A DNA stretch of 64,000 nt from an uncultured Cytophagia bacterium (GCA_964527995.1 CAZGRP010000016.1:806-64805); one strand, 5' to 3'. Positions 7,371 to 64,000 are shown, numbered from the stretch's first letter. Notes: generated by a model not told the origin, from the sequence alone. Made by a program: numbers and translations.

Positions 7371-7458
7371 AAGATGGCTTGGAACGCCGCCTGCAGGCGG
7401 TAGCGGGCGTTTTCAATTTGGGATGTCGGATTTCGGATTGCAGCGGAGCGAGGCACGA

Positions 7459-8154: not shown

Positions 8155-8288
8155 GAATAAAGCTCCTCGGCGGGCCGTTACAGGATTTGTGAGCCAGCCA
8201 GGAAGGCAAGAAGGCCGATGCGGCTCACCGACCCGACGCAGCCTTGCCTGCATCCGAAAAATAGCGCAGTTCCGTTGATCCCTCCCCC

Positions 8289-8324
8289 AGGCCTCGGACC
8301 CCAAATGGGTTCGGGGCCTTTTTT
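8289..8324 (+). terminator. Rho-independent terminator
   Basis: aggcctcggaccc-caaat-gggttcggggcct followed by a T-run. Confidence 0.75.
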
Positions 8325-8355
8325 GAGGCTACCCCCAGGCCAGAAAAAAATCGCG

Positions 8356-8384
8356 TTGACTCTTGTTACCATTTCGTTTATCTT
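8356..8384 (+). promoter_or_regulatory. Putative sigma70 promoter of the envelope operon
   Basis: TTGACT-N17-TATCTT, with an A-tract upstream. Confidence 0.65.
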
Positions 8385-8389
8385 TTGAC

Positions 8390-9364
8390 ATGCGTTTCCG
8401 TTCGCTACATCGCCGGCCTGCCGATCCGCCCCGCTGTGCGCTCTGGCTGCTCGCCGGCGTCCTGTTGCTGCCGGTTGTGCCGGCCCAGGGACAGGAGGTG
8501 CCATTGCTGCGACTGCGGTCGCTGAGGGTGGTCGCTGACGGCGAGTTGATGGGCCGGCCTCTGCGTTATCCCGAGGCGATGTCGGTCGCCCCTGATGGGC
8601 GTCTCTATCTTGCCGACACAGGCAACAACCGACTGCTCCTCCTCAACCGCCAGGGTGAGGTGGTGCGCGAGGTTGCCGGGTTCGGATGGGGCAAGGACCA
8701 GTTCGACCGGCCGGTTGACATCTTTGCCAGTTCCGGACTGGACGCTTTCGTTGCGGACTACAACAACCGCCGTGTCCTCCGCTACGACAAAGATCTGAAC
8801 TATCTCTCCTCCTTCACCGCCGGAGAAGGGAAAGAGTCCGAACTCCAGCTTGGCTACCCTTCGGGAGTGGCCCTGTCGTCACATGGGGAGCTGTTTGTGG
8901 TGGACAACGAGAACCGCCGGGTGCTGAAGATTGATTCCTTCGGCGTGCCCGAATTCAGTTTCGGCGACTTCAGCTATGGCGACGGCAGCCTGGAAGATCC
9001 GCAGCGGATTGAGATCAGCCACGACGACGTGATCTACGTCAGCGATCGCGGCCGGCATTGTGTGATGACCTACGACTACTACGGCAATTATCTCGGCCGC
9101 ATCGGCCAGGGGGTGCTCGTCTCACCAATGGGACTTCGCTGGGAGGAAGGCAGGCTATGGGTGGCAGATGTGGAAGGCGACCAGATCGTCCTTTTCGACA
9201 GCGACGGGAAGGCCTTGGGGCGATGGAACGTGCCGGGCGATGGCCTGGGGGCTCTGGATGGCCCGATTGACGTGGACGTCTACAACGGCAACGTGTACGT
9301 TCTTGAACGCGACAGCCAGCGCATCCAGGTCTTTGACTGGCTTGGCTCGCCGCGACGGCCCTAG
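8390..9364 (+). CDS. Exported NHL-repeat beta-propeller protein
   Basis: Hydrophobic signal region; repeated motifs LYLADTGNNR, FVADYNNRR, FVVDNENRR, YVSDRGRH, WVADVEGDQ. Confidence 0.85.
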   Translation: MRFRSLHRRPADPPRCALWLLAGVLLLPVVPAQGQEVPLLRLRSLRVVADGELMGRPLRYPEAMSVAPDGRLYLADTGNNRLLLLNRQGEVVREVAGFGWGKDQFDRPVDIFASSGLDAFVADYNNRRVLRYDKDLNYLSSFTAGEGKESELQLGYPSGVALSSHGELFVVDNENRRVLKIDSFGVPEFSFGDFSYGDGSLEDPQRIEISHDDVIYVSDRGRHCVMTYDYYGNYLGRIGQGVLVSPMGLRWEEGRLWVADVEGDQIVLFDSDGKALGRWNVPGDGLGALDGPIDVDVYNGNVYVLERDSQRIQVFDWLGSPRRP

Positions 9365-9424
9365 CCCGTCGTTCGGGCATCAGGAGTCCCTGTCGCTACA
9401 ACAATCGTTTGCGGTGGTTAGTGC

Positions 9425-12400
9425 ATGAGGGGCCTTTTCGCAACCTTCCTGCTGTTCTCGGTCCTCCCCTCATTGTTGCAGGCTCAGGATCCGCCTGATT
9501 CTGCTCCCCCTGCCAGCCTTTCTTTGAGAACGGTCCAAATCGAATTGAGGCCCGACAGTTTGGACTATGAACTGGCAGACAGCCTCGTGGTCCCAGGATC
9601 GGAGCGTCTCTGGGTCGGCGCTGATACCCTCCGGCCGGGTGTCGACTACTCGTTCGACTATGTCCGGGGCTGGCTGCATCTCAGGCAGAAGGAATTTGCC
9701 GGCCGGACCTTGCATGTCCGTTACCTTCGGCTTCCCGTCCCCCTTCCAATCCACTACCGCCATCGCCGGCCCGTGGTGGTGTCGACAGATTCCCTGGAAC
9801 GAGAGCGGATCGTGGCTGCACTGGCCAAGCAACCGAGGGTGCAAAGACGGCGGGAGTCTGCGGCAAACCTGCGCAAGTCCGGCAGTCTTGTGCGCGGAGT
9901 TACCATCGGTAGCAACCAGGCCCTCACAGTCAACTCGGGATTGCGCCTGCAGCTGTCTGGTCGCGTCGGCAGGGATGTTCAGGTGGTTGCCTCTTTGACC
10001 GATCAGAATACGCCGATCCAGCCTGAAGGCAACACCCAGACGCTGCGCGAGATCGACAAGGTTTTCGTCAAGATTGGTTCCAGTCGCATGCAGGCGACGC
10101 TCGGTGACTTCGACCTGCGCTACAGCGGAACAGAATTCGCCCGCTACGAGCGCAAGCTGCAGGGTGCCATGGGCAGCGCCCGGCTCGGGAATGCCGAAGT
10201 CACGATCTCCGGCGCTGTGTCACGAGGCAAATTCACCACCAACCAGTTCCTCGGACAGGAGGGAAATCAGGGTCCCTATCAGTTGCGCGGGGAGCGCGGC
10301 GAGGTGAACATCATTGTCCTCGCCGGCACAGAACGGGTGTACGTGGACGGCGAGCTGATGACGCGAGGGGAGGACCATGATTACGTCATCGAGTACGGCA
10401 ACGGCCAGATCACATTTACGAGGAATCGACTGATCACCGCCGACTCGCGGATCACGGTGGATTTCCAGTACTCCGCCGAGCACTTTCGCCGTAATCTGTA
10501 CAGCGCGTCTGCCCGGGCACGAGGCCTCAATAACCGTCTCTCCATCGGCGCCACGCTGCTGCGTGAGAGCGACGACAAGAGCAACCCCCTCGACTTTACC
10601 CTGCGGAAGGAGGAACTTTCGCGGCTCCAGGCGGCGGGCGACAATCCGGATTCGACTGTGGTGGATGGGTGGCGCTTCGTGGGTCAGGGCGAAGGCCCAT
10701 ACGTGCGCGACGAGGCCACGGGAGTGTTCGATTATGTCGGACCCGGCAAGGGAGACTACGTGGTCACGTTTTCGTTTGTGGGCCGCGGCAAAGGCGACTA
10801 CGACTTCCAGGGTCTCGGCAACTACCGGTTCGTGGGCAAGGGTCAGGGCAGCTACCTGCCAATCATCCTATTGACGCCCGCCCAGCGCCACGAGGTGGCC
10901 GACATCGATCTTCGCCTCGAACCGAGCAAGGCCCTCTCTCTGACTGCAGAGATGGCCAGCAGTCTCTTCGACGCCAACCTCTATTCGAGCCGCGACGACG
11001 GCGACAATCGCGGCATCGCCGCTCAACTGGGGCTATCCTACCAGCCGGATCGACTCAGGCTTGCAGGCCGATCGCTGGGGCGCCTGCGGTTTGGAGCCCG
11101 TTATCGGCGCAAGAATCGCCGCTTCCGCGACATCGATCGCACGACCATCGTCGAGTATGCACGGCAGTGGGATTTGCCAGGAACGCTTCGCTCGCCCGAA
11201 GAGACGGTCACGGAATTCGAGACCTCCTACGAGCCGACTGCGGGCTTTTCCATGCGGGGCGGCCTCGGGCGACTGGCAAAGGGAGGCACATTCCGCTCCA
11301 ACCGGTGGGAGCTGGAGACTCGTCTCGACAGACAGGGCCTGCCCCGTTTCGACTACCGCATCGAGAGGATCAGCCGTAACGACCAAGAGAGAGTCGATCG
11401 GACTCTGTGGTTGCGGCAGCGCGGTAGCGCCAGCGTCAGCGTTGGCAAGCTCCGGCCCTTTGTGAGCTATGAGGGCGAAATCAAGAAAGAGAGTCGGGGT
11501 GATACGCTGCAAGGCGGGTTCCGTTTCAACGACGTGATCACTGGCATCGAGCTGAAGCGGTGGCGCGGCATGTCGCTGCTGGCCCAGTTCGGCGTACGCG
11601 ATGATGATCAACGCCTCGGGGGGATCTTCAAGAACAGGTCTGTGGCCACCACTCGCCAGGTTCGCTGGCAACTTCACGGCTGGCGTACCCTCAGTGCCGA
11701 CGTCTCTTTCGTGCACCGGACCCGCAACTTCGCCGACCCCTCACTGCAAAGTACGCGCACAGACTTGGCGGACGTGCGTGTGACCTTTGCGCCCCTGCAC
11801 CGCGCCCTCGAATCCAAATGGTACTACCAGATCAACAACACCCGGGTGGCGCGCCAGGAGCGGGTTTTCATCAAGGTGGGCGAAGGCCAGGGTAACTACC
11901 GCTTTGATCCTAATTTCAACGAATATGTGCCGGACTCGTTCGGCGACTATGTTCTGAGGATCTTCGCTACGGACCAATTCGTTCCGGTGATCGACCTGCG
12001 CGCCAGCATGAACCTTCGGTTCGAGCCCGCCAGGCTGCTGGTACGTTCCGGGCAGCGCCGCGATGACTTCTGGAGAAAATATCTGAGTCCGGTGTCCACA
12101 GAAACCCTGGTGCGCATCGAGGAGAAGAGCAGGGAATCCGACGTCTGGCAAATCTACCGCCTGAATCTGAGCCACTTTCAGCGCGAGTCAACGTCCGTGG
12201 CGGGGCTGATCCAGTTGCGCCAGGATCTCTACCTGTGGCGCAATCGCCGCGATCATTCCGTGCGATTGCGATATGAGAGCCGGCGTGAGTTGAACAATCA
12301 ATTCCTGGAAGGCGGGCAACGCCGGAGGCTGGCCGAGACGTCTGCGCGGCTCAATTTTCGGCTGGGTCCGCGTCTGGCCAGCCAGGTGGATCTGATCCAT

Positions 12401-12853
12401 CGCCGGCTGGAGCGGCGGTTTGCCTCCCGCAGTCGCCCCGACCGGGACATCGCGTCGGATCAGGTGGTTCTCGATTTGAGCTACCGGCCGCGGCCCGCTC
12501 TGGAGCTGGCTCTGCGTTCCATCGTCGGTCTGGACCGCGATCGAGAGCCAAAGCCGGATACGCGCGTTCGGCGGTTCGATCTTGCGCCACGGATGTCGTA
12601 TGCCCTCAGCCGCCAGGGCCGCATCCGGGCCGAGGTCAGCCTGACCAGGGTGACCGCCGAGCCGGGGAATCGCTTCATCCCGTTTGAGATGGCGGGTGGC
12701 CGGCGTGTGGGTACCACAGCCGCATGGAGCGTGGGCTTCAACTACCGCTTCGCCAGCAACGTGATGTTGAACCTGAGCTACAATGGCCGAAAGGAGCAAG
12801 GGCGCCCCGACACGATCCATGTCGGTCGCGCTGAGGTGAGAGCTTTCTTTTGA
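9425..12853 (+). CDS. Large conserved outer-membrane beta-barrel protein of unknown function (FCB type)
   Basis: Signal peptide, DQNTPIQPEGNTQTL motif, alternating beta-strand pattern, C-terminal ..EVRAFF. Confidence 0.7.
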   Translation: MRGLFATFLLFSVLPSLLQAQDPPDSAPPASLSLRTVQIELRPDSLDYELADSLVVPGSERLWVGADTLRPGVDYSFDYVRGWLHLRQKEFAGRTLHVRYLRLPVPLPIHYRHRRPVVVSTDSLERERIVAALAKQPRVQRRRESAANLRKSGSLVRGVTIGSNQALTVNSGLRLQLSGRVGRDVQVVASLTDQNTPIQPEGNTQTLREIDKVFVKIGSSRMQATLGDFDLRYSGTEFARYERKLQGAMGSARLGNAEVTISGAVSRGKFTTNQFLGQEGNQGPYQLRGERGEVNIIVLAGTERVYVDGELMTRGEDHDYVIEYGNGQITFTRNRLITADSRITVDFQYSAEHFRRNLYSASARARGLNNRLSIGATLLRESDDKSNPLDFTLRKEELSRLQAAGDNPDSTVVDGWRFVGQGEGPYVRDEATGVFDYVGPGKGDYVVTFSFVGRGKGDYDFQGLGNYRFVGKGQGSYLPIILLTPAQRHEVADIDLRLEPSKALSLTAEMASSLFDANLYSSRDDGDNRGIAAQLGLSYQPDRLRLAGRSLGRLRFGARYRRKNRRFRDIDRTTIVEYARQWDLPGTLRSPEETVTEFETSYEPTAGFSMRGGLGRLAKGGTFRSNRWELETRLDRQGLPRFDYRIERISRNDQERVDRTLWLRQRGSASVSVGKLRPFVSYEGEIKKESRGDTLQGGFRFNDVITGIELKRWRGMSLLAQFGVRDDDQRLGGIFKNRSVATTRQVRWQLHGWRTLSADVSFVHRTRNFADPSLQSTRTDLADVRVTFAPLHRALESKWYYQINNTRVARQERVFIKVGEGQGNYRFDPNFNEYVPDSFGDYVLRIFATDQFVPVIDLRASMNLRFEPARLLVRSGQRRDDFWRKYLSPVSTETLVRIEEKSRESDVWQIYRLNLSHFQRESTSVAGLIQLRQDLYLWRNRRDHSVRLRYESRRELNNQFLEGGQRRRLAETSARLNFRLGPRLASQVDLIHRRLERRFASRSRPDRDIASDQVVLDLSYRPRPALELALRSIVGLDRDREPKPDTRVRRFDLAPRMSYALSRQGRIRAEVSLTRVTAEPGNRFIPFEMAGGRRVGTTAAWSVGFNYRFASNVMLNLSYNGRKEQGRPDTIHVGRAEVRAFF

Positions 12854-12883
12854 CCGTACCTCTGTCCTCTGTGTCTGAGGGAG

Positions 12884-14644
12884 ATGAAACACATCCGCTA
12901 CATCATTCTTCTCGCCTGGCTGACGGTCGCGGCCTCGGGTGCGGCTAGCCAAGACCATTCGGCTGCACCGGTCCGAAGTATCAAAATCCGCAGTCAAGGT
13001 GCTCTACCGACTCGACAGCTCGAGGGCTGGCTTGGCCTGCAGCGCGGCAAGCCGCTGACGGAAGAAGCCCTCCAGGATGGCTTGCGCCGCCTGCTGAGCC
13101 ATCTTCAGGACGAAGGGTATTTTTTCGCCCGAGTCGATTCGGTGCATCGAACGGTGGTGCGGCGTGGCACGGCGGTCGAGGTGACGATCTCGGAGGGTCC
13201 CCAGGTCGTCCTCGGCCAGGTCCGATTTGAGGGGGTCGACGGGGAGGAAAGACGACGGATTGATCGGCAATGGCGTCTCTCCCCCGGCCGACTGTTGTCG
13301 GGGGCGGAACTGAAGGAGCAACTGCATCGGATCGTGCGATCCTACGAGGATCGTGGCTATCCCTACTGTAGCATCGAGTTGGTGCGGATGGAGCTGGCAG
13401 GGCGGGACGGGCCGGGCAAGCAGGCTCTCGACCTGGTGTTACAGGTGCGCCGCGGCCCGAAGGTAGTGATCTCGAAGATCGACGTGCGCGGCAACACGCA
13501 GACGCGCCGCAACATCATTTTGCGGGAGTTGGGAGTTCGACCCGGCGACGTGTACAGTCAGAAACGGGTTGACGAGATTCCGAGGAGGCTGCAAAGCCTC
13601 GGCTACTTCAAAGAGGTGGAGGAGCCAGTGCTGTTGCAGCATCCAGACGGAAGCAGCCGCCTGGTGGTTACCGTGGTGGAGGGCAACAACAATCGCTTCG
13701 ACGGCGTCTTGGGATACAATCCCGGCACGGCGAGAGGGCGCGGCTTCTTGACCGGCCTGGTCGATGTGTCCTTTGGCAATCTGTTCGGCACCGGCCGCCA
13801 GGTCGCGGTCCGTTGGGAAAAGCGCAGCCGGCAGACACAGCAATTCCAGTTGTCGTATCGCGAGCCCTGGGTGGCAGGGCTGCCGCTGAATGCGGGGATT
13901 GGTTTCGAACAGCTCGCTCAGGACACCAGCTATGTGCAGCGCGGGTGGTTCATCGACTTGCAGATCCCCGTGGCCGAACGCCTGTTCGTCTCGGGGCGGT
14001 TGAGTGGTGAAAGCGTCACTCCAGACTCCGCGGGCTCTCGATTTTACGCTGTTCCTCGGAGTCGCGCTCTGTCGGTCGGCTTTTCTTTGAAGTACCAAAC
14101 GGTGAACGACCCCCTAAATCCGCGCTCCGGCGTGCTTTACGCCACCAGCGTGGAAACGGGCCGCAAGAGGATCGATCCTCTGCCCGGTGAGGGAGCGAGC
14201 CGGAGTTTCACTCGTAAGCGCCTTTCTCTCGACTTCGAGGCCTATGTGGAGCCGATACGCTGGCAGGTGATTGCGGTGGCTTTCCACGGCAGGCAAGTCA
14301 CAACCGGCGAGCCCCGCGTGTCGCTCTCTGACCAGTACCGCCTGGGCGGCGCCCTGACTCTGCGCGGATACCGCGAAGAGCAATTCCGTGGTTCCAGGGT
14401 CGCCTGGTCGAATCTGGAGTATCGCTACCTCCTGGGTCCCGCGTCGCGGGCCTTCGTGTTTCTCGATGCCGGCTACTTCTGGCGGCGGGAAGCGACGGCG
14501 GCGGTGCGAGGGTTCAAGCTGGGATACGGCATCGGCGTCAGCATGGCTACCCGTCTTGGCATGCTCAGCATTGCCTACGGCCTCGGTCAAGGCGACGGGC
14601 TTATGGACGGCAAGGTGCACCTGCGGCTGGTGAACCGATTCTAA
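12884..14644 (+). CDS. Omp85 family (BamA/TamA-like) protein with POTRA domains
   Basis: POTRA motifs EGYFFARV, RGYPY, RGNTQTRRNIILREL; NLFGTG; LRGYREEQF; terminal Phe. Confidence 0.88.
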   Translation: MKHIRYIILLAWLTVAASGAASQDHSAAPVRSIKIRSQGALPTRQLEGWLGLQRGKPLTEEALQDGLRRLLSHLQDEGYFFARVDSVHRTVVRRGTAVEVTISEGPQVVLGQVRFEGVDGEERRRIDRQWRLSPGRLLSGAELKEQLHRIVRSYEDRGYPYCSIELVRMELAGRDGPGKQALDLVLQVRRGPKVVISKIDVRGNTQTRRNIILRELGVRPGDVYSQKRVDEIPRRLQSLGYFKEVEEPVLLQHPDGSSRLVVTVVEGNNNRFDGVLGYNPGTARGRGFLTGLVDVSFGNLFGTGRQVAVRWEKRSRQTQQFQLSYREPWVAGLPLNAGIGFEQLAQDTSYVQRGWFIDLQIPVAERLFVSGRLSGESVTPDSAGSRFYAVPRSRALSVGFSLKYQTVNDPLNPRSGVLYATSVETGRKRIDPLPGEGASRSFTRKRLSLDFEAYVEPIRWQVIAVAFHGRQVTTGEPRVSLSDQYRLGGALTLRGYREEQFRGSRVAWSNLEYRYLLGPASRAFVFLDAGYFWRREATAAVRGFKLGYGIGVSMATRLGMLSIAYGLGQGDGLMDGKVHLRLVNRF

Positions 14645-56255: not shown

Positions 56256-56816
56256 TTAGAAGATCTCGCGCAGTGCGATTTCGAGACCCTGGAGGAGGGG
56301 CGAACACAGGGTGTCTTTCTTGCCGAACGTCGCCTGTTTCTTGTAGACCCCGGCCGCCAGGGACAGCACCTCGATGGTCTCGGCCTCCGGGTCGACGATC
56401 CAGTATTCCTGGACGCCGAAACGAGCGTAGAGCTTGCGCTTGACCGTGGTGTCACGCTCGCGGGTAGCCGGGGAGAGGATCTCGACGATGAGGTCCGGGG
56501 CGCCCTGGAGGTTCTCCTCTTTCACTCGGGAGAGATGGGCGTTCGACACAAAGAGGAGATCGGGCTGCAAGACATCGTGCTCGGAAAGTACAACGTCGTA
56601 AGGGGCCTCGAGCACGCGCCCCAAACGGTGATCCTTGACAAACGTGAACAGCTTGACGGCTACAGCAAGTGAGATGTTTTGGTGTCTGGTGCTCGGCGAC
56701 GGTGACATGAAGAGGTCCCCCTCGATGATTTCATAGCGCTTGCCGTCATCGGGGAGGTGGCGGTAGTCTTCATAGGTGAAGGCGAGCGCCTCGGTCTTAG
56801 CTGCAGCAGGCATCAC
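56256..56816 (-). CDS. Uma2 (DUF820) family endonuclease-fold protein
   Basis: RYEIIEG, PSTRHQ, QPDL, GAPDLIVEILSP, KRKLY, EYWIVDP. Confidence 0.93.
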   Translation of the reverse strand: MMPAAAKTEALAFTYEDYRHLPDDGKRYEIIEGDLFMSPSPSTRHQNISLAVAVKLFTFVKDHRLGRVLEAPYDVVLSEHDVLQPDLLFVSNAHLSRVKEENLQGAPDLIVEILSPATRERDTTVKRKLYARFGVQEYWIVDPEAETIEVLSLAAGVYKKQATFGKKDTLCSPLLQGLEIALREIF

Positions 56817-58282: not shown

Positions 58283-58661
58283 CCCGGCAGGCGCTGACTG
58301 CACCAGCCAGGCGTAGCAGGAACTCTGCGGCGGGCGGAGGTGACATGCGACGGGGGTGTTCTCGGTCCCCATGTGCTTGGGGTTGTGGGGTTTCTCAGAT
58401 GTGGTAAAGCGACGGGAGTTTTTCGCAGCCTTGAGAGTGACACCAACACTTGGCACTTTCAGGGCTCAATCGTGCGGCCGGATACGAACTGTTGACGACA
58501 TTGTAACCGCGTATCTATTAGACGGTTAGGGTTGACTCAGCAAGACAGCTCGGTGGGATGTGGCTGGCATGTTTTTTGTGTGGGTGCGGTGTCGTTCACG
58601 ATCGATGGGAAAGTGAGCGGCAGTCTTTTCGTTCCCGTCTTCCCCAAGAAGGAGACCCGCC

Positions 58662-58886
58662 ATGGCCGATCTCGACATCCCTGCGCGCAGTAATGACCGC
58701 CCAAGTTCGCCGCTGGAAAAGGGCCAGTCTTACTGCCCCCTCTCGGACCAATTGTGTCCGCGCGGCAGTGCCCAGGCGACGCGATGCTGTGAGATCTTCG
58801 CTACGCGCTTCGATCCTGTTTCCAATATGAGTCATTTTGCGATGCTGGCCTGCGCCAGCCAGGCGGCCGGAGTCAGCCCACCGTGA
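58662..58886 (+). CDS. Small Cys-rich hypothetical protein
   Basis: AAGGAG RBS 7 nt upstream of ATG; CPLSDQLCP..CC..C. Confidence 0.5.
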   Translation: MADLDIPARSNDRPSSPLEKGQSYCPLSDQLCPRGSAQATRCCEIFATRFDPVSNMSHFAMLACASQAAGVSPP

Positions 58887-58915
58887 CCTGAGCCAGGAAT
58901 TCAAAACGGACCGGT

Positions 58916-59235
58916 TTGGACTGCCATGATGTTGCCAGAAGCATTCGGTCCAACATCCCCTTGCTGGTCCTGCTGCTGTCGTGGCCTGGGCAGGCGTTTG
59001 TTGGCCGCTACCGCGGGTGCATTTTGGAAGAACCTCCGAAGCGGGCTTCAACCTCGTTGTTTGGACCCTTCCACCGTTTGCCGTCCTGCTGGCCGGCTGT
59101 GTCGTGGTCAAATTCTTCCACCGCCAGCGGGCCATCATAGAGAAGGAAACGGACAAATCCTCGAAACCGCTGCCGCCTGACCAGCAGCGCCTTGCGGATC
59201 GCGTGGAAGACGAACCGCAGGAGTGGGATGGATAG
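58916..59235 (+). pseudogene. CcmH/NrfF-like cytochrome c biogenesis gene remnant
   Basis: FVGRYRGCILEEPPKR in one frame continues as GFNLVVWTLPPFAVLLAG in another (shift near 59043-59045); the LRCxxC domain is absent. Confidence 0.6.
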
Positions 59236-59473
59236 GGACGTCGCCGGGAGTTCAGCGCGCCTCGCAACTGAGGTCGGTATGCCCCTGGTGAGCACAATGC
59301 ACGCACGGGGGTGCGGCATGTGGATACGCGCTACATACGCGAACAAGGCACCAACCTTCGACACTGCCGACTTTATCGACGAAGGTCGCAAAGAAGCCTC
59401 GCCTGGCCGGCGGGGCTTTTGCGTTTCGGGTTGTGGCAAAAGACGCCCAAATCTTGCCATGTACTCGGTCGCT

Positions 59474-59723
59474 GTAGAAATTCTCACCACTGCCGTTGAG
59501 ATTTTCAACGCAATTCCCTTTTCCTTGAAAAACTGTTTCTTAGCCCCTCTCCGCGGAGGACGGGGGGTTGTGGCTGACGAATTTCTCAACACCACTCTGT
59601 CGCATTCCGTCGCGCGACTCTACGCATGAGCGCGCAGACGGCGTTGTTCGGCGTTGAATTTCCGGCAGTTAGCTCTTTGACAATTCTGTCTCGAAACGGG
59701 ACACTTTTTGGCCCGTCACTTGC
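59474..59723 (+). promoter_or_regulatory. sigma54 promoter with upstream repeated operator-like sites
   Basis: TGGCCCGTCACTTGC at 59709-59723; palindrome GTTGA-N5-TCAAC at 59495-59509 with degenerate copies at 59474, 59576 and 59653; TGTC-N9-GACA at 59687-59703. Confidence 0.65.
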
Positions 59724-59773
59724 CGGTACGACTAGCAGGGAAAGAAGTAGGGGCAAAGACTGGAGGTGGCATC

Positions 59774-60490
59774 ATGGTCGCGCTATTTGTGGTGGTGACG
59801 GTCCTGGTGTTCCTGACCATCGACTACTTTGTGCAACGCGCCGAGGTGCGCCGAGCAGCGCAGGCCGCCGGCGTGTCGCATTCGGCCCTCACCCTGGTTG
59901 TGGAGCCGCAGCCGTTCTGGGTGCACACGTCGATTCCGGTGGCGCGTCTTCCTCGCGGCGTGTTTTTTCACCCCGGCCACACTTGGGTACAGCTCGAGCC
60001 GAGCGGAGAATTGCTTGTTGGCTGCGGCACGCTGCCGATCACGGTGCTTGGGGATTTGGACGAGGTGAACGTGTGGCCGGCCGGCAGCGAAGTCCGCGAG
60101 GGCGATCCGGTCATCACTCTGCGGCATGGTGAGCGAGCCATCACCTTGCCGGCACCGGTCGACGGCGTGATCGAGGAGGTCAACACCAGGGTACAGGAGG
60201 AGCCAGAGCGACTGCGGCACGACCCGTTCATGCAAGGGTGGCTTTGCCGCATGTCGCCCAAACGCCTGGCTCCGGGGTTGAAAAAGATGTTCGTCGGCGA
60301 GGAAATGCTCGCCTGGATGCGCCAGGAGATGCGGCGTCTGCGCGATTTCCTGGCATCGCTGTCCGACCATGGCGCACTGGCCGGCGCCACCCTACAGGAT
60401 GGCGGTCTGCCTATCGACGGGCTCGCACAGCGGGTCGATGACCGCACTTGGGCCCGCTTCGTGGACGAGTTCTTCGGGCCCGAGGCGTAA
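59774..60490 (+). CDS. Membrane-anchored GcvH-like protein lacking the lipoyl lysine
   Basis: N-terminal TM, FHPGHTWV, APVDGVIEEVN, DPFMQGWL; hairpin reads LRHGERAI. Confidence 0.8.
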   Translation: MVALFVVVTVLVFLTIDYFVQRAEVRRAAQAAGVSHSALTLVVEPQPFWVHTSIPVARLPRGVFFHPGHTWVQLEPSGELLVGCGTLPITVLGDLDEVNVWPAGSEVREGDPVITLRHGERAITLPAPVDGVIEEVNTRVQEEPERLRHDPFMQGWLCRMSPKRLAPGLKKMFVGEEMLAWMRQEMRRLRDFLASLSDHGALAGATLQDGGLPIDGLAQRVDDRTWARFVDEFFGPEA

Positions 60491-60563
60491 GGGACTCCTG
60501 GCGGCGGGCAGTGCCTTCTGTATGTTCGACACAGAGGAATGGATTCATCTCTTGGAGCCAGCG

Positions 60564-61376
60564 ATGAAGGCCGCCATCTTGACCGATCTGACGAAATGCG
60601 TTGGCTGCGAGGCATGCGTTTGGGCCTGCAAAGAGATCAACGAACTGCCGCGCGATGACGGCGCCCGTAAACTGTCGGCAACCACGTGGACCGTTGTCGA
60701 GGAGCACAACGGCGTCTTCGTCCGTCATCAATGCATGCACTGCGTGGACCCGGCCTGCGCCTCCGTTTGCCCGGTCGCCGCCTTGCAGAAAACGCCCGAG
60801 GGCGCGGTGATCTACGATGAGACACGCTGCATCGGCTGCCGGTACTGCATGGTGGGCTGTCCTTTTGGCATCCCGAAGTATGAATGGGACAGTCCATTGC
60901 CGCGGGTGCAAAAGTGCATCCTATGCTTCGAAAAACGGCTGAAGGAGGGTCGCCAGCCGGCTTGCACCGAGGCATGCCCGACCAAGGCCACGGTTTTTGG
61001 AGACCGTGACGAGCTCGTCCGGGAAGCGCAGCGCCGCATCCGGGCGCATCCTGATCGCTACGTTGACCACATATACGGTCTCCACGAGGCCGGCGGCACG
61101 TCTGTGCTCTACATCTCCGGCGTGCCCTTCGAGGCGCTCGGCTTCAAGGTCACGCTTCGTGACGATCCCTATCCACGCCTGACGTGGGAGATTCTGTCCA
61201 AGCTGCCCAACGTGGTCGGCGTCGGGGGCGTGCTCATGTTCGGCATCTGGTGGGTTGTCAACCGGCGTGAAACCATGGATAGGGTGCGCCGGGGTGAGCT
61301 GTCCCTGGAAGAGGCGTTTGGCGAGAAGGCAGTCGGCGATCGCCCCGCAGTCGAGGACAACTCCGATCTCTCCTGA
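60564..61376 (+). CDS. 4x[4Fe-4S] electron-transfer subunit (HybA/NrfC/HmcB-like) with C-terminal TM
   Basis: CVGCEACVWAC, CMHCVDPACASVCP, CIGCRYCMVGCP, CILC..PACTEACP, YGLHEAGGT. Confidence 0.9.
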   Translation: MKAAILTDLTKCVGCEACVWACKEINELPRDDGARKLSATTWTVVEEHNGVFVRHQCMHCVDPACASVCPVAALQKTPEGAVIYDETRCIGCRYCMVGCPFGIPKYEWDSPLPRVQKCILCFEKRLKEGRQPACTEACPTKATVFGDRDELVREAQRRIRAHPDRYVDHIYGLHEAGGTSVLYISGVPFEALGFKVTLRDDPYPRLTWEILSKLPNVVGVGGVLMFGIWWVVNRRETMDRVRRGELSLEEAFGEKAVGDRPAVEDNSDLS

Positions 61377-61446
61377 CGGGGCTGAGTTCACAACAGAGAT
61401 GGCCGCCTCATTTTGGTGATCCTGGCAACGACAAAGGACAACAGCC

Positions 61447-63030
61447 ATGAACCATCGGTTGCTCGGAAAGCTGACGTTCTGGAAGGGGCTTTTCTGGGTC
61501 ATCCTCGCGGCGGGGCTCTACGCGACGGTCATACGCTTCGCACGCGGTCTGGGGGCGGCCACGCATCTAAACGACAGTTTCCCGTGGGGATTGTGGATCG
61601 GTTTCGACGTGCTGGTCGGTGTTGGCCTGGCCGCCGGGGGGTTCGTGATCGCGGCCACCGTGCACATCTTTCGCATGGAAAAGTACGAGCCCATCGCTCG
61701 TCCGACGGTCCTCACGGCGTTCCTGGGCTACCTGCTAGTGATCGTGGCTTTATTGTTCGACCTCGGGCGCCCGTACCGGATCTGGCATCCGCTGGTGATG
61801 TGGAATCCGCACTCGGTGATGTTTGAAGTAGCCTGGTGTGTGATGCTGTACACTTCAGTGCTGGCGCTTGAGTTCAGCCCGTTACTCTTTGAGCGGCTCA
61901 GATTGCAGAGGCCGCTGCGCGTGATCCGCAGCATCTACGTTCCATTGGTGATCATCGGCGTGCTACTCTCCACCATGCACCAGTCATCCCTTGGCACCCT
62001 CTACGTCATTGCCCCCGACAGGCTCCATGGCCTGTGGTACTCGCCGCTCCTTCCGGTTTTCTTCTTCATAACGGCCATCGCCGCGGGTCTGGCGATGACG
62101 ATCTTCGAATCCTTCATGAGCTTCCGCGCCTTTGGCAAGCGCCTGGAGGCGGACCTGCTGGAAGGCTTGGGTCGAGTAATTGTCGTGGTGCTGGCCGTGT
62201 ACGCGGTGTGGAAGCTGGAGGATCTCGCCAGTCGTGGTAACTTCGGGCTGATCTTCCGGGTTACTCCTGAGAGTGTGCTGTTTTGGGGAGAAATGGGCCT
62301 CGGCGTCGTTCTGCCGATGATCTTGTTCGCGCTGCCAAAGGTTCGCCAGAACGAGCACGGCCTGTTTTTCGCCGCCATGTTGACCATCATGGGGTTCATC
62401 CTCAATCGATTGAACGTGGCCATTACTGGTATGGCGGCTTCGTCCGGCGTCTCCTATTTCCCATCGTGGATGGAGTTCGCCGTCACCATGACCATTGTCG
62501 CTCTCGGCTTCCTGCTTTTCGCCCTGGCCGTGAAGTATCTGCCTGTCTTCCCGCCGGGGGAGCTGGAAGCGGTGCGCCGACCCGAAGTTGCCGTGCGGCG
62601 CGCTCGCCCGGCGTTCCACGGCGGCGTACTGCTCGCTCTCTGGGGACTGCTCTTTGTCGGCATCGTCGTCGTGGGCTTCAGCCTCGAGAGGGACAACCAC
62701 AAGAAGGGTGAAGGACAGCAGCTCGGGGCCACAGAAGTGTTAAAGGCCACCTCCGCCGAGCACCTGGAACTGCCTGCGGCGTACACCTTCCCGACCGCAG
62801 CAGGCAGTCCTGGGCCCGTGACCTTCAGCCACGAGAGCCACATCGATTCGCAGGAGCCGAGCTGCGCCACCTGCCACGCCACTCTCTTCCGGCTCATTGA
62901 GCCGGGCAGGCCGGTGCAGGGTGAGATGACCATGGATCGGATGTACAAGGGCGACCTCTGCGGCGCCTGCCACAACGCGGAGCTCGCCTTCGACGTTCAA
63001 GATGACTGTAGCAGTTGCCATCAGGAATGA
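61447..63030 (+). CDS. NrfD/HybB-type membrane subunit fused to a C-terminal triheme cytochrome c7-like domain
   Basis: PWGLWIGFDV, DLGRP, SVMFEV, STMHQSSLG, YFPSW; C-terminal VTFSHESH, CATCH, CGACH, CSSCH. Confidence 0.9.
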   Translation: MNHRLLGKLTFWKGLFWVILAAGLYATVIRFARGLGAATHLNDSFPWGLWIGFDVLVGVGLAAGGFVIAATVHIFRMEKYEPIARPTVLTAFLGYLLVIVALLFDLGRPYRIWHPLVMWNPHSVMFEVAWCVMLYTSVLALEFSPLLFERLRLQRPLRVIRSIYVPLVIIGVLLSTMHQSSLGTLYVIAPDRLHGLWYSPLLPVFFFITAIAAGLAMTIFESFMSFRAFGKRLEADLLEGLGRVIVVVLAVYAVWKLEDLASRGNFGLIFRVTPESVLFWGEMGLGVVLPMILFALPKVRQNEHGLFFAAMLTIMGFILNRLNVAITGMAASSGVSYFPSWMEFAVTMTIVALGFLLFALAVKYLPVFPPGELEAVRRPEVAVRRARPAFHGGVLLALWGLLFVGIVVVGFSLERDNHKKGEGQQLGATEVLKATSAEHLELPAAYTFPTAAGSPGPVTFSHESHIDSQEPSCATCHATLFRLIEPGRPVQGEMTMDRMYKGDLCGACHNAELAFDVQDDCSSCHQE

Positions 63031-63047
63031 ATCCGGGAGGGTGAGGG

Positions 63048-63797
63048 ATGAAGCCCCCGGAAAAGAACTCGCGAAACCAGCGCCTCCTGCCCGATGGCGC
63101 CCTGCGGTGCGTCTGGATGACGGCCGGGCTGGTGGCCTACAAGTTGTGCGATCGTGACTTCGAATGCGAACACTGTCGGTTTGATGGCGTGATGCGCGGT
63201 CGAAGGGTTGATGAATCTGCGGAGGAAGCGCCGGTGCCGAAGGATGCGGCAGAGTTGGAATTCCGCAGCGACCGGCAGTACCATCCAGCACACACATGGG
63301 CCAAGACGCTGGAAGGGGGTCGTCTGCGCATCGGCATCGATTCCTTCGCCGCTAAACTGATCGATCGCACGATCTCTGCCATCCTGCCGCCATCGGGAGC
63401 AGTGGTGCATCACGGCCGGATTGGGTGTTGGCTCCTCGACGATTTGGGCCCGCTGCCTCTGAAGATGCCCGTCAGCGGGAGGGTGCTGTGCGGCAATGAG
63501 CGGCTGCGCAGCTACCCCTCTCTTGCCGCTGAGTCACCCTACGATGAGGGCTGGCTGATGGAAATCGTCCCGGAGGACGCGGCACAGGAGATGGCGTTCC
63601 TGCTGTCGGCAGACGAGATGCGGCGTCGGTCGCAAGCCGACCTGGCGCGTTTCCGTCGCCTCGCCGCGGCATACCTGCGCCGCGGCACCCAGGTCGTCGG
63701 CCTGACGCGGGCGGACGGTGGCGAGTGCCTGGCTGCCCTGCGCGACATGCTGGGCGCGCCGCGCCACCGTCGCCTGGTGATGCACTTCTTGGATTGA
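63048..63797 (+). CDS. GcvH-like protein with Cys-rich N-terminal domain, lacking the lipoyl lysine
   Basis: CVWMTAG..KLCDRDFECEHCRFD, YHPAHTW, RIGIDSFA, PVSG, SPYDEGWL. Confidence 0.82.
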   Translation: MKPPEKNSRNQRLLPDGALRCVWMTAGLVAYKLCDRDFECEHCRFDGVMRGRRVDESAEEAPVPKDAAELEFRSDRQYHPAHTWAKTLEGGRLRIGIDSFAAKLIDRTISAILPPSGAVVHHGRIGCWLLDDLGPLPLKMPVSGRVLCGNERLRSYPSLAAESPYDEGWLMEIVPEDAAQEMAFLLSADEMRRRSQADLARFRRLAAAYLRRGTQVVGLTRADGGECLAALRDMLGAPRHRRLVMHFLD

Positions 63798-63830
63798 GAA
63801 GGAACGAAGATAGCCGTCCAGAGTGCACCC

Positions 63831-64000
63831 ATGCCAGATCGTGAAGACCAGGTGATAACCGGAAGAAGCCTGGGAGAGCTCTACCACAGCCTCGGCTTGC
63901 GGCTCTTTCTCTGGCTGTTTGGCCTCATGATCCTGGTGTTCGCGGGGTATGCCTACGTGACCATACGCGGGACTTCACGACACTGGAGACAGATGCTGTA
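63831..64000 (+). CDS. N-terminus of a probable membrane sensor (histidine kinase), truncated by window end
   Basis: Manual translation MPDREDQVITGRSLGELYHSLGLRLFLWLFGLMILVFAGYAYVTIRGTSRHWRQML: SL..RL followed by TM1, typical of sensor kinases; no kinase domain is visible in the window. Confidence 0.5.
   Translation, partial: MPDREDQVITGRSLGELYHSLGLRLFLWLFGLMILVFAGYAYVTIRGTSRHWRQML

What the first reader, a model, noticed from the sequence alone, without database searches (positions are those of the whole stretch)
59474..64000. sigma54-controlled redox module: two lipoyl-less GcvH-like proteins, Fe-S subunit, NrfD-cytochrome c7 fusion and probable sensor kinase, with no catalytic subunit
Seen: a compact co-oriented run of GcvH-like(TM) - 4x[4Fe-4S] - HybB/NrfD+triheme - Cys-rich GcvH-like - TM sensor start, behind a GG-N10-GC promoter. 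No hydrogenase or molybdopterin catalytic subunit and no GcvP/T/L are in the window. Established: NrfC/NrfD pairs normally link a catalytic subunit to the quinone pool. Inference: this may be a quinone/periplasmic redox-sensing or electron-conduit complex wired to a two-component system, with H-protein folds reused as adaptors.
Basis: partly seen in the sequence, partly recalled or inferred. Interest (0 to 1): 0.8.

Follow-up and report, generated by a model that had tools for sequence, protein, structure and literature searches.

The report
Hydrogenase-bearing redox-sensor operon with GcvH-like adaptors
The "catalyst-less" redox module is the front half of a ten-gene operon whose [NiFe] hydrogenase lies just past the window edge, but its seven-gene core (quinone-linked iron-sulfur module, two lipoate-less H-protein look-alikes, haem sensor kinase, sigma-54 regulator, metalloprotease) is a widespread, undescribed unit that usually has no hydrogenase at all.

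Summary
The five genes are real. They are a TM-anchored lipoyl-less GcvH-like protein, a signal-less HybA/HmcB-like 4x[4Fe-4S] protein, a HybB/NrfD-c7 fusion, a Cys4 GcvH-like protein, and the start of a sensor kinase. A sigma-54 -24/-12 element lies 50 nt upstream.

The contig continues past base 64000: the rest of the kinase (periplasmic PAS-like domain with CxxCH and Cx4CH), a Tat-signal anchorless [NiFe] hydrogenase small subunit, the large subunit, a maturation protease, an NtrC-type sigma-54 regulator and an M54 peptidase.

In 0 of 20 related loci does a hydrogenase follow the kinase. Only 3 of 15 other module-bearing genomes have a group-1 [NiFe] hydrogenase anywhere. Relatives fuse the GcvH-like domain to receiver domains or to a periplasmic binding domain, so it looks like a signalling adaptor.

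Best reading: a sigma-54/two-component-controlled, quinone-linked NrfCD-type module that this lineage recruited as membrane anchor and quinone reductase for an inserted hydrogenase.

The scan met the same seven-gene operon before on other DNA (e1-4893995). No paper describing it was found. What the GcvH-like proteins bind, and how the Fe-S subunit is exported elsewhere, remain open.

The parts
59709..59724 (+). sigma-54 type -24/-12 promoter-like element TGGCCCGTCACTTGCC, 50 nt before the first start codon
   Evidence: 2 mismatches to TGGCAC-N5-TTGCW. Equivalent elements occur upstream of the orthologous first gene in 7 of 11 loci, against 0.06 expected by shuffling. rpoN is present in the genome. 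Function was not tested.
59774..60490 (+). GcvH-like protein 1 (238 aa): N-terminal TM anchor starting at residue 1, cytoplasmic lipoyl-less H-protein fold, and a family-specific C-terminal helical extension with a DGG motif
   Evidence: Pfam GCV_H 5e-17, below the NCBIfam GcvH cut-offs. 61 relatives of similar length. Alignment invariants. E at the lipoyl-Lys column.
60564..61376 (+). HybA/HmcB-like 4x[4Fe-4S] protein (270 aa) with a C-terminal TM tail anchor and no signal peptide
   Evidence: NCBIfam HmcB 270.6 bits (cut-off 420) and HybA 221.2 (cut-off 263), matching from model position 38-41 onward, i.e. without the signal region. 16 Cys in four motifs. GGAG lies 6 nt before ATG 60564. 10 of 10 orthologues have an in-frame stop 4 to 33 codons before the start Met, which sits 5 to 11 residues before the first Cys motif, leaving no room for a signal peptide. 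E. coli HybA has a Tat signal.
61447..63030 (+). HybB/HmcC-like NrfD membrane subunit (10 TM), an 11th TM and a periplasmic triheme cytochrome c7 domain (527 aa)
   Evidence: Pfam NrfD 2.6e-28 and Cytochrome_C7 8e-15; NCBIfam HmcC 330 bits (cut-off 550), HybB 299 (cut-off 450), nanowire_3heme 73.8 (cut-off 40). CxxCH at residues 473, 505, 521. K+R bias 20 inside to 7 outside. E. coli HybB quinone-site and channel residues are conserved.
63048..63797 (+). GcvH-like protein 2 (249 aa): N-terminal Cys4 motif (C21, C34, C40, C43), lipoyl-less H-protein fold, and the same kind of C-terminal extension
   Evidence: Pfam GCV_H 3.7e-13. 102 relatives. C34, C40 and C43 are invariant and C21 nearly so in 34 sequences. 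AlphaFold2 model: core pLDDT above 90, TM-score 0.93 (normalised to the target) to T. thermophilus H-protein 1onl_A; the Cys4 region has low confidence.
63831..64000 (+). Start of the sensor histidine kinase (555 aa; runs to window-equivalent 65498). Beyond it on the same strand (L002 = window minus 57194): HydS 8411-9382, HydL 9393-11099, maturation protease 11096-11584, sigma-54 response regulator 11581-12933, M54 peptidase 12940-13485
   Evidence: HAMP, HisKA, HATPase_c; NiFe small subunit TIGR00391 383 bits; NiFeSe_Hases 773 bits; HycI; REC + Sigma54_activat + HTH_8; Peptidase_M54. Kinase periplasmic domain: CIICH at 128 and CANAACH at 171, invariant in 16 of 16. Model pLDDT 82.5, PAS/Cache-like fold.
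59468..59592 (+). Two copies of a 23-nt direct repeat (78% alike, 102 nt apart) with an inverted partner, 120-240 nt upstream of the -24/-12 element: a candidate activator-binding region
   Evidence: D1, I3. Weak: two-copy repeats are often chance, and it was not seen conserved in other loci.

Best explanation
The finding is the 5' half of a ten-gene, co-oriented cluster.

Its conserved core is seven genes: GcvH-like-1, signal-less HybA-like Fe-S protein, HybB/NrfD (here fused to c7), GcvH-like-2, haem-c sensor kinase, sigma-54 response regulator and M54 peptidase. In this lineage a periplasmic [NiFe] hydrogenase (Tat-signal small subunit without membrane anchor, large subunit, maturation protease) has been inserted between kinase and regulator.

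Proposed working in this genome (inferred):
1. H2 is oxidised in the periplasm.
2. Electrons pass through the c7 domain and/or the four Fe-S clusters of HybA' to menaquinone at the HybB' site.
3. HybA' has a tail anchor but no signal peptide, so it reaches the periplasm by hitch-hiking on the small subunit's Tat signal, and in turn anchors the hydrogenase.
4. The kinase's periplasmic PAS-like haem domain reads the redox state of this electron path and drives the regulator, which activates the -24/-12 promoter in front of the operon.
5. The two GcvH-like proteins sit on the cytoplasmic side as non-lipoylated signalling adaptors acting on the membrane module or the kinase. Their target is unknown.

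Shown: gene content, order, motifs, conservation and topology bias. Inferred: electron path, export route, what the kinase senses and the adaptor role.
For: Anatomy of the cluster:
- Gene content and domains.
- Tight spacing, a 4-nt protease/regulator overlap and no terminator-like site between genes.
- The kinase-to-HydS and protease-to-regulator junctions are bridged by contigs of a second sample (X2). The kinase-to-HydS junction is also bridged by a 92-95% identical relative from another study (X3). So the insertion is not a mis-assembly.

The hydrogenase and the module complement each other:
- HydS has RRDFMKF but no C-terminal TM, whereas E. coli HybO has one.
- HybA' has the C-tail but no signal.
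- No cytochrome b gene lies in the cluster, and the genome has no other HybB homologue.

Precedent: signal-less tail-anchored ferredoxin + HybB-like + Tat-signal [FeFe] hydrogenase, proposed to hitch-hike (bioRxiv 10.1101/2023.11.02.564894; passages read).

HybB' looks catalytically competent:
- E. coli HybB D58, D109, S129, E133, Y99, E148, E155, H184 and R329 are invariant in 12 of 12 module proteins. The residue list comes from PMC8076601 (passages read).
- Canonical N-in topology in 12 of 12.

Regulation:
- -24/-12 element in 7 of 11 loci against 0.06 expected; rpoN present.
- Kinase haem motifs in 16 of 16.
- PAS/Cache-like fold, with Foldseek E 1.6e-4 to the haem-c sensor GSU0935, 3b42.

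Adaptor role of the GcvH-like proteins:
- TM-REC-GcvH-like and REC-GcvH fusions sit beside kinase, HybA', HybB'c7 and RR54 in 3 same-order genomes.
- Signal peptide + periplasmic PBP-like domain + TM + GcvH-like forms: 10 of the 150 best hits to the C-terminal-extension profile are 493-564 aa, all 10 carry a C-terminal GCV_H domain, and 3 were read in full.
Against: - The module is mostly hydrogenase-independent. No hydrogenase follows the kinase in 0 of 20 other loci. Only 3 of 15 other module-bearing genomes have a group-1 large subunit, and two of those three carry a complete separate hybO-A-B-C-D operon. So the hitch-hiking route cannot explain how HybA' is exported elsewhere, and H2 oxidation is not the core function.
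- The window's HybA' frame is open upstream. An in-frame ATG at 60438 would add a PRRKGLL... stretch. It would overlap gcvH1 by 53 nt and is not matched in any relative, but it is not excluded.
- The kinase domain stays below the Pfam gathering score for the haem-sensor family (13.8-25.6 bits against 27).
- There are no expression data and no experimental data of any kind.
- The hydrogenase could instead hand electrons to soluble cytochromes.
Confidence: 0.55

Rival explanations
1. Pure sensing device. HybA'/HybB' is not a bulk respiratory enzyme but the input arm of the two-component system. It equilibrates the kinase's periplasmic haems with the quinone pool. The GcvH-like proteins relay or tune the signal. 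The hydrogenase here is only a regulated cargo gene that uses other periplasmic acceptors.
For: The module is strictly linked to the haem kinase, the sigma-54 regulator and M54 across phyla, without any catalytic gene. The GcvH-like domain is fused to receiver and periplasmic binding domains. The earlier scan finding e1-4893995 reached this reading on other DNA (not independent evidence).
Against: HybB' keeps all quinone-site and proton-channel residues of a working HybB. The inserted hydrogenase has no anchor, no cytochrome b and no other HybB in the genome, and it sits inside the operon with overlapping genes. Multihaem cytochrome genes flank the module in several loci, as expected for an electron-transfer role.
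Confidence: 0.2
2. Quinol-oxidising outlet. The module runs in the opposite direction, like Cbc-, Nhc- or stand-alone NrfCD-type complexes. It passes electrons from menaquinol through HybA' and c7 to periplasmic or surface multihaem cytochromes. The hydrogenase here either evolves H2 from that path or is functionally separate.
For: c7 is fused or adjacent in several loci. Multihaem cytochromes, some with a T9SS sorting tail, lie next to the module in L008, L012, L052 and L059. A stand-alone NrfCD cluster in Melioribacter roseus was interpreted this way (PMC3534657; passage read), though it was not shown to be the same family. Tail-anchored ferredoxin + HybB-like + c-type cytochrome modules are described in 10.1101/2023.11.02.564894.
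Against: The closest solved relative of the large subunit is an uptake-type periplasmic enzyme (3myr_B, 738 bits). The direction of electron flow cannot be read from sequence. Most Bacteroidota versions lack c7.
Confidence: 0.12
3. The GcvH-like proteins are assembly or export chaperones, for example cytoplasmic escorts or proof-readers for the signal-less Fe-S subunit, rather than signalling adaptors.
For: They are cytoplasmic by the positive-inside rule. One carries a conserved Cys4 motif. They co-occur with a HybA' that lacks its own export signal. No HybE-like chaperone gene is in the cluster.
Against: The same domain is fused to receiver domains and to a periplasmic binding domain + TM, which are architectures typical of signalling. 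GcvH-like TM proteins also accompany Tat-signal-bearing HybA paralogues (L057, L060).
Confidence: 0.08
4. One reading: in this genome the module works without any catalytic subunit.
For: None of the five genes in 59474-64000 is catalytic.
Against: HydS, HydL and the protease follow on the same strand within the same gene string. The junctions are confirmed in independent assemblies.
Confidence: 0.03

Closest known systems
E. coli hydrogenase-2 electron-transfer pair HybA/HybB (hybOABCDEFG)
   Same: A 4x[4Fe-4S] tail-anchored protein plus a haem-less 10-TM NrfD-type quinone subunit next to a group-1 [NiFe] hydrogenase. Quinone-site and channel residues of HybB are conserved.
   Different: - HybA' has no Tat signal and HydS has no C-terminal anchor.
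- Gene order differs: A'-B' sit upstream, separated from hydSL by a GcvH-like gene and a kinase gene.
- NCBIfam equivalog cut-offs are not reached.
- c7 is fused to HybB'.
- No hybE/F/G genes here.
- The module occurs mostly without a hydrogenase.
Desulfovibrio Hmc complex subunits HmcB/HmcC (and the related Nhc, Qrc)
   Same: These are the best NCBIfam matches (HmcB 270.6 bits, HmcC 330.4 bits). A cytochrome c partner delivers electrons to an Fe-S/NrfD pair. Hmc is implicated in H2-linked electron transport (as summarised in 10.1101/2023.11.02.564894).
   Different: Scores are below the equivalog cut-offs (420 and 550). There are no HmcA, D, E or F genes. A triheme c7 is fused instead of a separate 16-haem cytochrome. 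GcvH-like proteins take the place of a cytoplasmic HdrD-like subunit.
Signal-less tail-anchored ferredoxin + HybB-like quinol oxidase + Tat-signal periplasmic [FeFe] hydrogenase (bioRxiv 10.1101/2023.11.02.564894)
   Same: The Fe-S protein has a C-tail but no signal peptide, sits next to a HybB-like subunit and a Tat-signal hydrogenase, and is proposed to hitch-hike (passages read).
   Different: Here the hydrogenase is [NiFe] and lies downstream. The pair is embedded in a kinase/regulator/GcvH-like operon. Most relatives have no hydrogenase partner.
Periplasmic haem-c PAS-like sensor domains of Geobacter chemoreceptors GSU0582/GSU0935 (PDB 3b47, 3b42; Pfam PF21563)
   Same: PAS/Cache-like periplasmic fold with a covalent haem motif. 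Foldseek E 1.6e-4 (3b42) and 1.1e-2 (3b47). Repeated weak PF21563 hits.
   Different: There are two motifs here (CxxCH and Cx4CHxH). The output is a histidine kinase, not an MCP. Pfam gathering score is not reached. Top fold matches are haem-free WalK/CitA/DctB sensors.
Glycine cleavage H protein and lipoate-binding relatives
   Same: Same barrel-sandwich fold (TM-score 0.93, normalised to the target, to 1onl_A). Pfam GCV_H.
   Different: No lipoyl lysine. There is an extra N-terminal TM or Cys4 module and a C-terminal helical extension. Scores are far below the GcvH equivalog cut-offs. A canonical-length GcvH match (130-aa open frame) lies elsewhere in the genome.
H2-sensing regulatory hydrogenase circuits (HupUV/HoxBC with HupT/HoxJ and the NtrC-type HupR/HoxA); recalled, not tested
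   Same: A hydrogenase locus combined with a histidine kinase and a sigma-54-family regulator.
   Different: Here the hydrogenase is Tat-exported and protease-matured (a group-1 feature). The kinase has a periplasmic haem domain. The kinase-regulator pair is conserved without any hydrogenase in most genomes.

Membership tests
Hyb-type (E. coli Hyd-2-like) HybA/HybB | HybA carries its own twin-arginine signal peptide | tested here: not met
   The match to the HybA model starts at position 41. The start Met lies 5-11 residues before the first Cys motif, with an in-frame stop 4-33 codons upstream, in 10 of 10 relatives. E. coli HybA has VNRRNFIK....
Hyb-type (E. coli Hyd-2-like) HybA/HybB | hybO-hybA-hybB-hybC gene order, and a small subunit with a C-terminal TM anchor | tested here: not met
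   The order here is A'-B'-GcvH2-HK-HydS-HydL. HydS ends without a hydrophobic tail. Canonical hybOABCD operons exist separately in G001 and G002.
Hyb-type (E. coli Hyd-2-like) HybA/HybB | NCBIfam equivalog scores above cut-off | tested here: not met
   HybA 221.2 bits against 263; HybB 298.7 against 450.
Hyb-type (E. coli Hyd-2-like) HybA/HybB | Quinone-site and ion-channel residues of HybB | tested here: met
   D58, D109, S129, E133, Y99, Y141, E148, E155, H184, S186, S187, E291 and R329 are invariant in 12 of 12. S105 is A or G; S190 is S or T.
Hmc complex (HmcABCDEF) | HmcB/HmcC equivalog scores, and presence of HmcA, HmcD, HmcE and HmcF | tested here: not met
   270.6 bits against 420 and 330.4 against 550. 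None of the ten cluster genes scanned against Pfam/NCBIfam is an HmcA-, HmcD-, HmcE- or HmcF-type protein.
Group-1 periplasmic [NiFe] hydrogenase | Tat-signal small subunit, large subunit with a C-terminal extension, and a dedicated endopeptidase | tested here: met
   TIGR00391 383 bits (cut-off 179.5) with RRDFMKF; PF00374 773 bits; TIGR00072 131 bits. Closest solved chain is 3myr_B, 738 bits. The subgroup was not assigned.
Glycine cleavage system H protein | Lipoyl-lysine in the hairpin (E. coli K65), and an equivalog score | tested here: not met
   E and L at that column. K in 2 of 61 and 0 of 98 relatives. 50 and 44.7 bits against a cut-off of 115.85.
NtrC-type two-component system with a sigma-54 promoter | HAMP-HisKA-HATPase kinase; REC-AAA+(Sigma54_activat)-HTH_8 regulator; GG-N10-GC element; rpoN in the genome | tested here: met
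   Activity and regulon were not tested.
Haem-c PAS-like periplasmic sensors (PF21563, GSU0582/0935 type) | Family-level sequence match and a covalent haem motif in a PAS-like periplasmic fold | tested here: inconclusive
   Motifs are invariant in 16 of 16. The fold is PAS/Cache-like with 3b42 at E 1.6e-4. PF21563 scores of 13.8-25.6 bits stay below the gathering score of 27. Haem binding is not testable here.
Hitch-hiking tail-anchored ferredoxin of Tat hydrogenases | No signal peptide, a conserved C-tail, and an adjacent Tat-signal hydrogenase | tested here: met
   Met in this genome. The third feature is not met in 20 of 20 related loci. Co-export itself is not testable with these tools.

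The most novel reading that the evidence does not exclude
The lipoate-less GcvH fold plus its C-terminal helical extension is a new cytoplasmic signal-output/adaptor domain. At least 1834 50%-identity clusters match the extension profile.

It is delivered to the membrane by a bare TM anchor, a Cys4 module, a phosphorylatable receiver domain, or a periplasmic ligand-binding domain. It would act on a haem-less NrfD/HybB-type quinone module.

That would mean post-translational, two-component control of a respiratory quinone site (or, in reverse, a respiratory complex used as the input of a kinase). The always-adjacent M54 'archaemetzincin' would be part of the circuit.
Probability: 0.35. Interest if true: 0.8.

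Novelty: new variant of a known kind. Interest (0 to 1): 0.62.

Why it matters
NrfCD/HybAB-type modules are the standard way bacteria link periplasmic redox enzymes to the quinone pool. How their activity is sensed or regulated is largely unknown.

This operon ties such a module to a haem-containing kinase, a sigma-54 regulator and a family of H-protein look-alikes. That family is annotated everywhere as 'glycine cleavage system H protein' although it cannot carry lipoate.

The window adds a natural experiment. One lineage has plugged an anchorless [NiFe] hydrogenase into the operon, which points to what the module can do: accept periplasmic electrons and reduce quinone. It also gives a tractable phenotype (H2 uptake) for testing the unknown parts.

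It would also:
- correct a widespread mis-annotation;
- give bacterial archaemetzincins a first genomic context;
- extend the recently proposed Tat hitch-hiking of signal-less tail-anchored ferredoxins from [FeFe] to [NiFe] hydrogenases.

Tried and rejected
- **Complex prediction** (HybB' 1-385 + HybA' + GcvH-like-1 as partner): no verdict. Score 0.51, with one unrelated-protein control at 0.56.
- **Sequencing runs**: no RNA holder listed, so co-transcription could not be examined.
- **Papers.** Five searches gave 0 papers: GcvH/'glycine cleavage system H' with NrfD or HybA; response regulator + GcvH + output domain; NrfD-like/HybB/HmcC. Searches gave only the general papers cited. One search found no paper holding 'archaemetzincin' among the 8 listed of 222. 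The NrfD review PMC8076601 has 0 occurrences of 'glycine' or 'two-component'. Supplements of the bioRxiv preprint (its Table S3 and dataset S1) are closed and might list members of this family.
- **First search for related loci attempt** with the diverse alignment failed. A closer alignment was used instead.
- **Genomic context of the periplasmic-binding-domain + GcvH-like proteins**: not found in 5 module-bearing genomes, nor in 251 genomes sampled from G003's phylum at E<=1e-45. No positive-control genome was available.
- **Crude hydropathy TM counter**: it double-counted helices and was replaced by an alignment-based loop count.
- **GcvH-like-2 Cys4 region**: the AlphaFold2 model gives no usable fold there (pLDDT below 60). 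The PDB sequence search finds only H proteins.
- **Kinase periplasmic domain against PDB by sequence**: nothing significant.
- **Rfam and Pfam on the 1.5 kb upstream of the operon**: nothing.
- **Regulatory (group 2b) H2-sensor hydrogenase**: considered and rejected, because HydS has a Tat signal and HydL has a protease-cleaved extension.
- **Inverted topology with a cytoplasmic HybA'**: considered and judged unlikely. HybB' is N-in in 12 of 12, c7 must be periplasmic, and the HybA' tail has the NRR motif after its TM, like canonical HybA.

Full report
**1. What is in the sequence**

The window is G000:C16:806-64805. The contig continues 6.8 kb beyond base 64000. From 59774 onward, on the + strand, ORF listing and Pfam/NCBIfam scans give ten genes.

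| Gene | Position | Length | Key features |
|---|---|---|---|
| GcvH-like-1 | window 59774-60490 | 238 aa | TM helix from residue 1, GCV_H 5e-17 |
| HybA' | window 60564-61376 | 270 aa | Fer4_11; best NCBIfam models HmcB 270.6 and HybA 221.2 bits, both below cut-off |
| HybB'-c7 | window 61447-63030 | 527 aa | NrfD + Cytochrome_C7; HmcC 330, HybB 299 bits, below cut-off; TIGR04257 triheme domain above cut-off |
| GcvH-like-2 | window 63048-63797 | 249 aa | GCV_H 3.7e-13 |
| Sensor kinase | window 63831 to window-equivalent 65498 | 555 aa | HAMP-HisKA-HATPase |
| [NiFe] hydrogenase small subunit | L002 8411-9382 | 323 aa | RRDFMKF Tat motif |
| [NiFe] hydrogenase large subunit | L002 9393-11099 | 568 aa | PF00374, 773 bits |
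| HyaD/HybD-type maturation protease | L002 11096-11584 | 162 aa | HycI |
| NtrC-type regulator | L002 11581-12933 | 450 aa | REC-AAA+-HTH |
| M54 peptidase | L002 12940-13485 | 181 aa | Peptidase_M54 |

(L002 position = window position minus 57194.)

- Gaps between genes are -4 to 106 nt. The scan finds no terminator-like site between genes.
- HybA' has 16 Cys in four cluster motifs. The c7 domain has three CxxCH. The kinase has CIICH and CANAACH in its periplasmic loop.

**2. The lipoyl-less claim and the promoter**

- Aligned to E. coli GcvH (fetched), the lipoyl-Lys65 column holds E in protein 1 and L in protein 2.
- Among the relatives found, K occupies that column in 2 of 61 (family 1) and 0 of 98 (family 2).
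- A -24/-12-like element, TGGCCCGTCACTTGCC, lies at 59709-59724. On its own it is unremarkable: 61 three-mismatch matches in 13.6 kb against 61.4 expected.
- However, an element with GG and GC and at least 9 of 11 consensus letters lies within 200 nt upstream of the first gene in 7 of 11 loci, against 0.06 expected from shuffles. L005, L010 and L013 have near-misses.
- rpoN is present in the genome (446 bits).

**3. The window edge hid the catalytic subunit**

The arrangement is not an assembly error.
- In a second sample of the same study (X2), contigs bridge the kinase/HydS junction (7394-8678) and run from HydL through the protease into the regulator and M54 (9855-13500).
- In a different study (X3), a relative 92-95% identical bridges the kinase/HydS junction with a different 31-letter spacer.
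- X1 may be the source sample and is not counted.

The large subunit's closest solved chain is 3myr_B (738 bits), ahead of Hyd-1- and Hyd-2-type chains. I did not assign a subgroup.

**4. The core is a conserved seven-gene unit that normally has no hydrogenase**

A pattern search with the family-1 alignment gave 11 genome loci. They come from Terriglobia/Acidobacteriota, Bacteroidota, Ignavibacteriales and 'JGI-2' records.

- In the 8 loci that reach far enough, the order is GcvH-like-1, HybA', HybB', GcvH-like-2 (missing in L012), kinase, RR54, M54, all co-oriented. No locus has a hydrogenase hit.
- Six same-class genomes have the module, often with two tandem GcvH-like-1 genes. Kinase-RR54-M54 is adjacent in 4 of 6; one contig is too short, and one shows none within 19 kb.
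- I examined 6 of 14 metagenome loci found with the kinase; the other 8 were weak partial matches. RR54 directly follows the kinase in 5 of these 6.
- Overall, a hydrogenase follows the kinase in 0 of 20 other loci.
- The HydL query finds strong matches elsewhere in G001, G002 and G005 (E<=1e-182), and a second copy in the own genome (1e-153). It finds nothing at E<=1e-50 in 10 further module-bearing genomes, nine of which are 93-100% complete, and only weak N-terminal matches in G003 and G004. That is 3 of 15.
- In G001 and G002 the hydrogenase sits in a separate canonical hybO-A-B-C-D operon with its own HybA/B (40% and 38% identical to the module's). In G005 it has a cytochrome b.
- Flanking genes are not conserved.

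**5. Features of the module proteins**

*HybA'.*
- It lacks a signal peptide in 10 of 10 relatives: an in-frame stop lies 4 to 33 codons before the start Met, which sits 5 to 11 residues before the first Cys motif, so there is no room for one.
- It keeps the C-terminal TM followed by NRR, as do E. coli and acidobacterial HybA.
- In the window the frame stays open upstream and could encode PRRKGLL from ATG 60438. That start would overlap gcvH1 by 53 nt, whereas ATG 60564 has GGAG 6 nt upstream.

*HybB'.*
- It has the canonical N-in orientation in 12 of 12 (K+R 11-22 inside against 4-11 outside).
- This is consistent with an 11th TM carrying c7 to the periplasm in the window, L003, L004 and L059.
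- It retains the E. coli HybB quinone-site and channel residues listed in PMC8076601.
- HybA' therefore most likely faces the periplasm.

*Kinase periplasmic domain.*
- Both haem motifs are invariant in 16 of 16.
- It models (pLDDT 82.5) as a PAS/Cache-like sensor.
- Top Foldseek matches are WalK, CitA and DctB, with the haem-c sensor GSU0935 at E 1.6e-4.
- PF21563 hits recur but stay below threshold.

**6. The GcvH-like proteins behave like signalling adaptors**

- Both paralogues share a C-terminal helix-loop(DGG)-helix extension.
- In three same-order genomes the orthologous positions are taken by TM-REC-GCV_H(+extension) proteins of about 388 aa and REC-GCV_H proteins of about 260 aa. These sit between the haem kinase and HybA'/HybB'c7/RR54.
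- A profile of the extension alone finds 1834 cluster representatives at E<=1e-3 and 544 at E<=1e-10. Most are 215-250 aa.
- Ten of the best 150 are 493-564 aa. All 10 have a C-terminal GCV_H domain. The 3 I read in full are signal peptide + periplasmic PBP-like domain + TM + GcvH-like + extension (PBP_like_2 scores only 7e-4, in one of them).
- A third TM type accompanies Tat-signal HybA paralogues with c7 (L057, L060).
- Sources name these proteins only 'glycine cleavage system H protein' or 'hypothetical'.

**7. How it most likely works here**

The inserted hydrogenase and the module are complementary.

| Component | Export signal | Membrane anchor |
|---|---|---|
| HydS | yes (Tat) | no |
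| HybA' | no | yes (C-terminal tail) |

- The cluster has no cytochrome b, and the genome has no other HybB homologue.
- A preprint describes the same logic for a signal-less tail-anchored ferredoxin, a HybB-like subunit and a Tat-signal [FeFe] hydrogenase (10.1101/2023.11.02.564894; passages read).
- I therefore read this cluster as an H2:menaquinone oxidoreductase built on the conserved module. The haem kinase and RR54 control the sigma-54 promoter, and the GcvH-like proteins act as cytoplasmic adaptors.
- Not explained: how HybA' is exported in the many hydrogenase-free genomes, what the adaptors bind, and what the M54 peptidase does.

**8. Comparison and novelty**

- The Fe-S/NrfD pair is a known kind (Hyb, Hmc, Nhc, Qrc, stand-alone NrfCD). 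This one fails the membership tests for HybAB and HmcBC: no signal peptide, different gene order, scores below cut-off.
- My searches found no paper on its coupling to a haem kinase, RR54, M54 and lipoate-less H-protein folds, or on REC-GcvH fusions.
- The scan itself met the seven-gene operon before in another genome (e1-4893995) and read it as a redox-sensing device with a periplasm-facing Fe-S protein. My independent tests agree with that.
- New here: the hydrogenase-bearing variant, the receiver and binding-domain fusions, the residue-level check of HybB', and the Tat hitch-hiking reading.

Noticed in passing
G000:C122:2245-3813 (-), outside the window: A second group-1 hydrogenase large-subunit gene, 50% identical to the one in the cluster, with one in-frame TGA. 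It may be a selenocysteine [NiFeSe] enzyme.
   Followed up: no
window 58283-59773: About 1.5 kb between the PLP-dependent Cys/Met enzyme gene and the operon has no Pfam-supported ORF and no Rfam match. A terminator-like hairpin at 59687-59703 sits 6 nt before the -24/-12 element.
   Followed up: partly
L002 12940-13485 (window-equivalent 70134-70679) and the orthologous position in related loci: An M54 'archaemetzincin' peptidase gene follows the sigma-54 regulator in all 8 complete genome loci, in 4 same-class loci and in 2 metagenome loci, often within a few bases. Its role is unknown.
   Followed up: partly
L060 7200-15393; L057 5595-10978; L052 3413-6782: Paralogous sets sit beside the signal-less module in the same loci. 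They comprise c7/multihaem cytochrome, Tat-signal HybA, HybB and a third type of TM GcvH-like protein (N-terminus MEGFSYVDLF.../MDSFTYVDIF...).
   Followed up: partly
P0293, P0288, P0221 (representative-library proteins): Proteins of 537-564 aa with signal peptide, periplasmic PBP-like domain, TM and a cytoplasmic GcvH-like domain with the family extension. Their gene context could not be fetched.
   Followed up: partly
L006 2814-4985; L053-L056: Two or three tandem copies of the TM-anchored GcvH-like gene precede HybA' in several genomes.
   Followed up: no
L059 9834-11318; L008 1-1416 and 3663-5815; L012 5000-8694: Multihaem c-type cytochromes, some with a T9SS C-terminal sorting domain or fused to cytochrome b561, lie next to the module in some loci.
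   Followed up: no
L003 956-9580; L004 220-4186: In the two Acidobacteriota loci the module lies directly downstream of Suf-type Fe-S assembly genes: Rrf2, an ABC ATPase, a class-V aminotransferase and FeS_assembly_P.
   Followed up: no
window 56256-56816 (-): A Uma2-family putative endonuclease gene lies on the opposite strand between a URO-D-like gene and the Cys/Met PLP enzyme gene.
   Followed up: no
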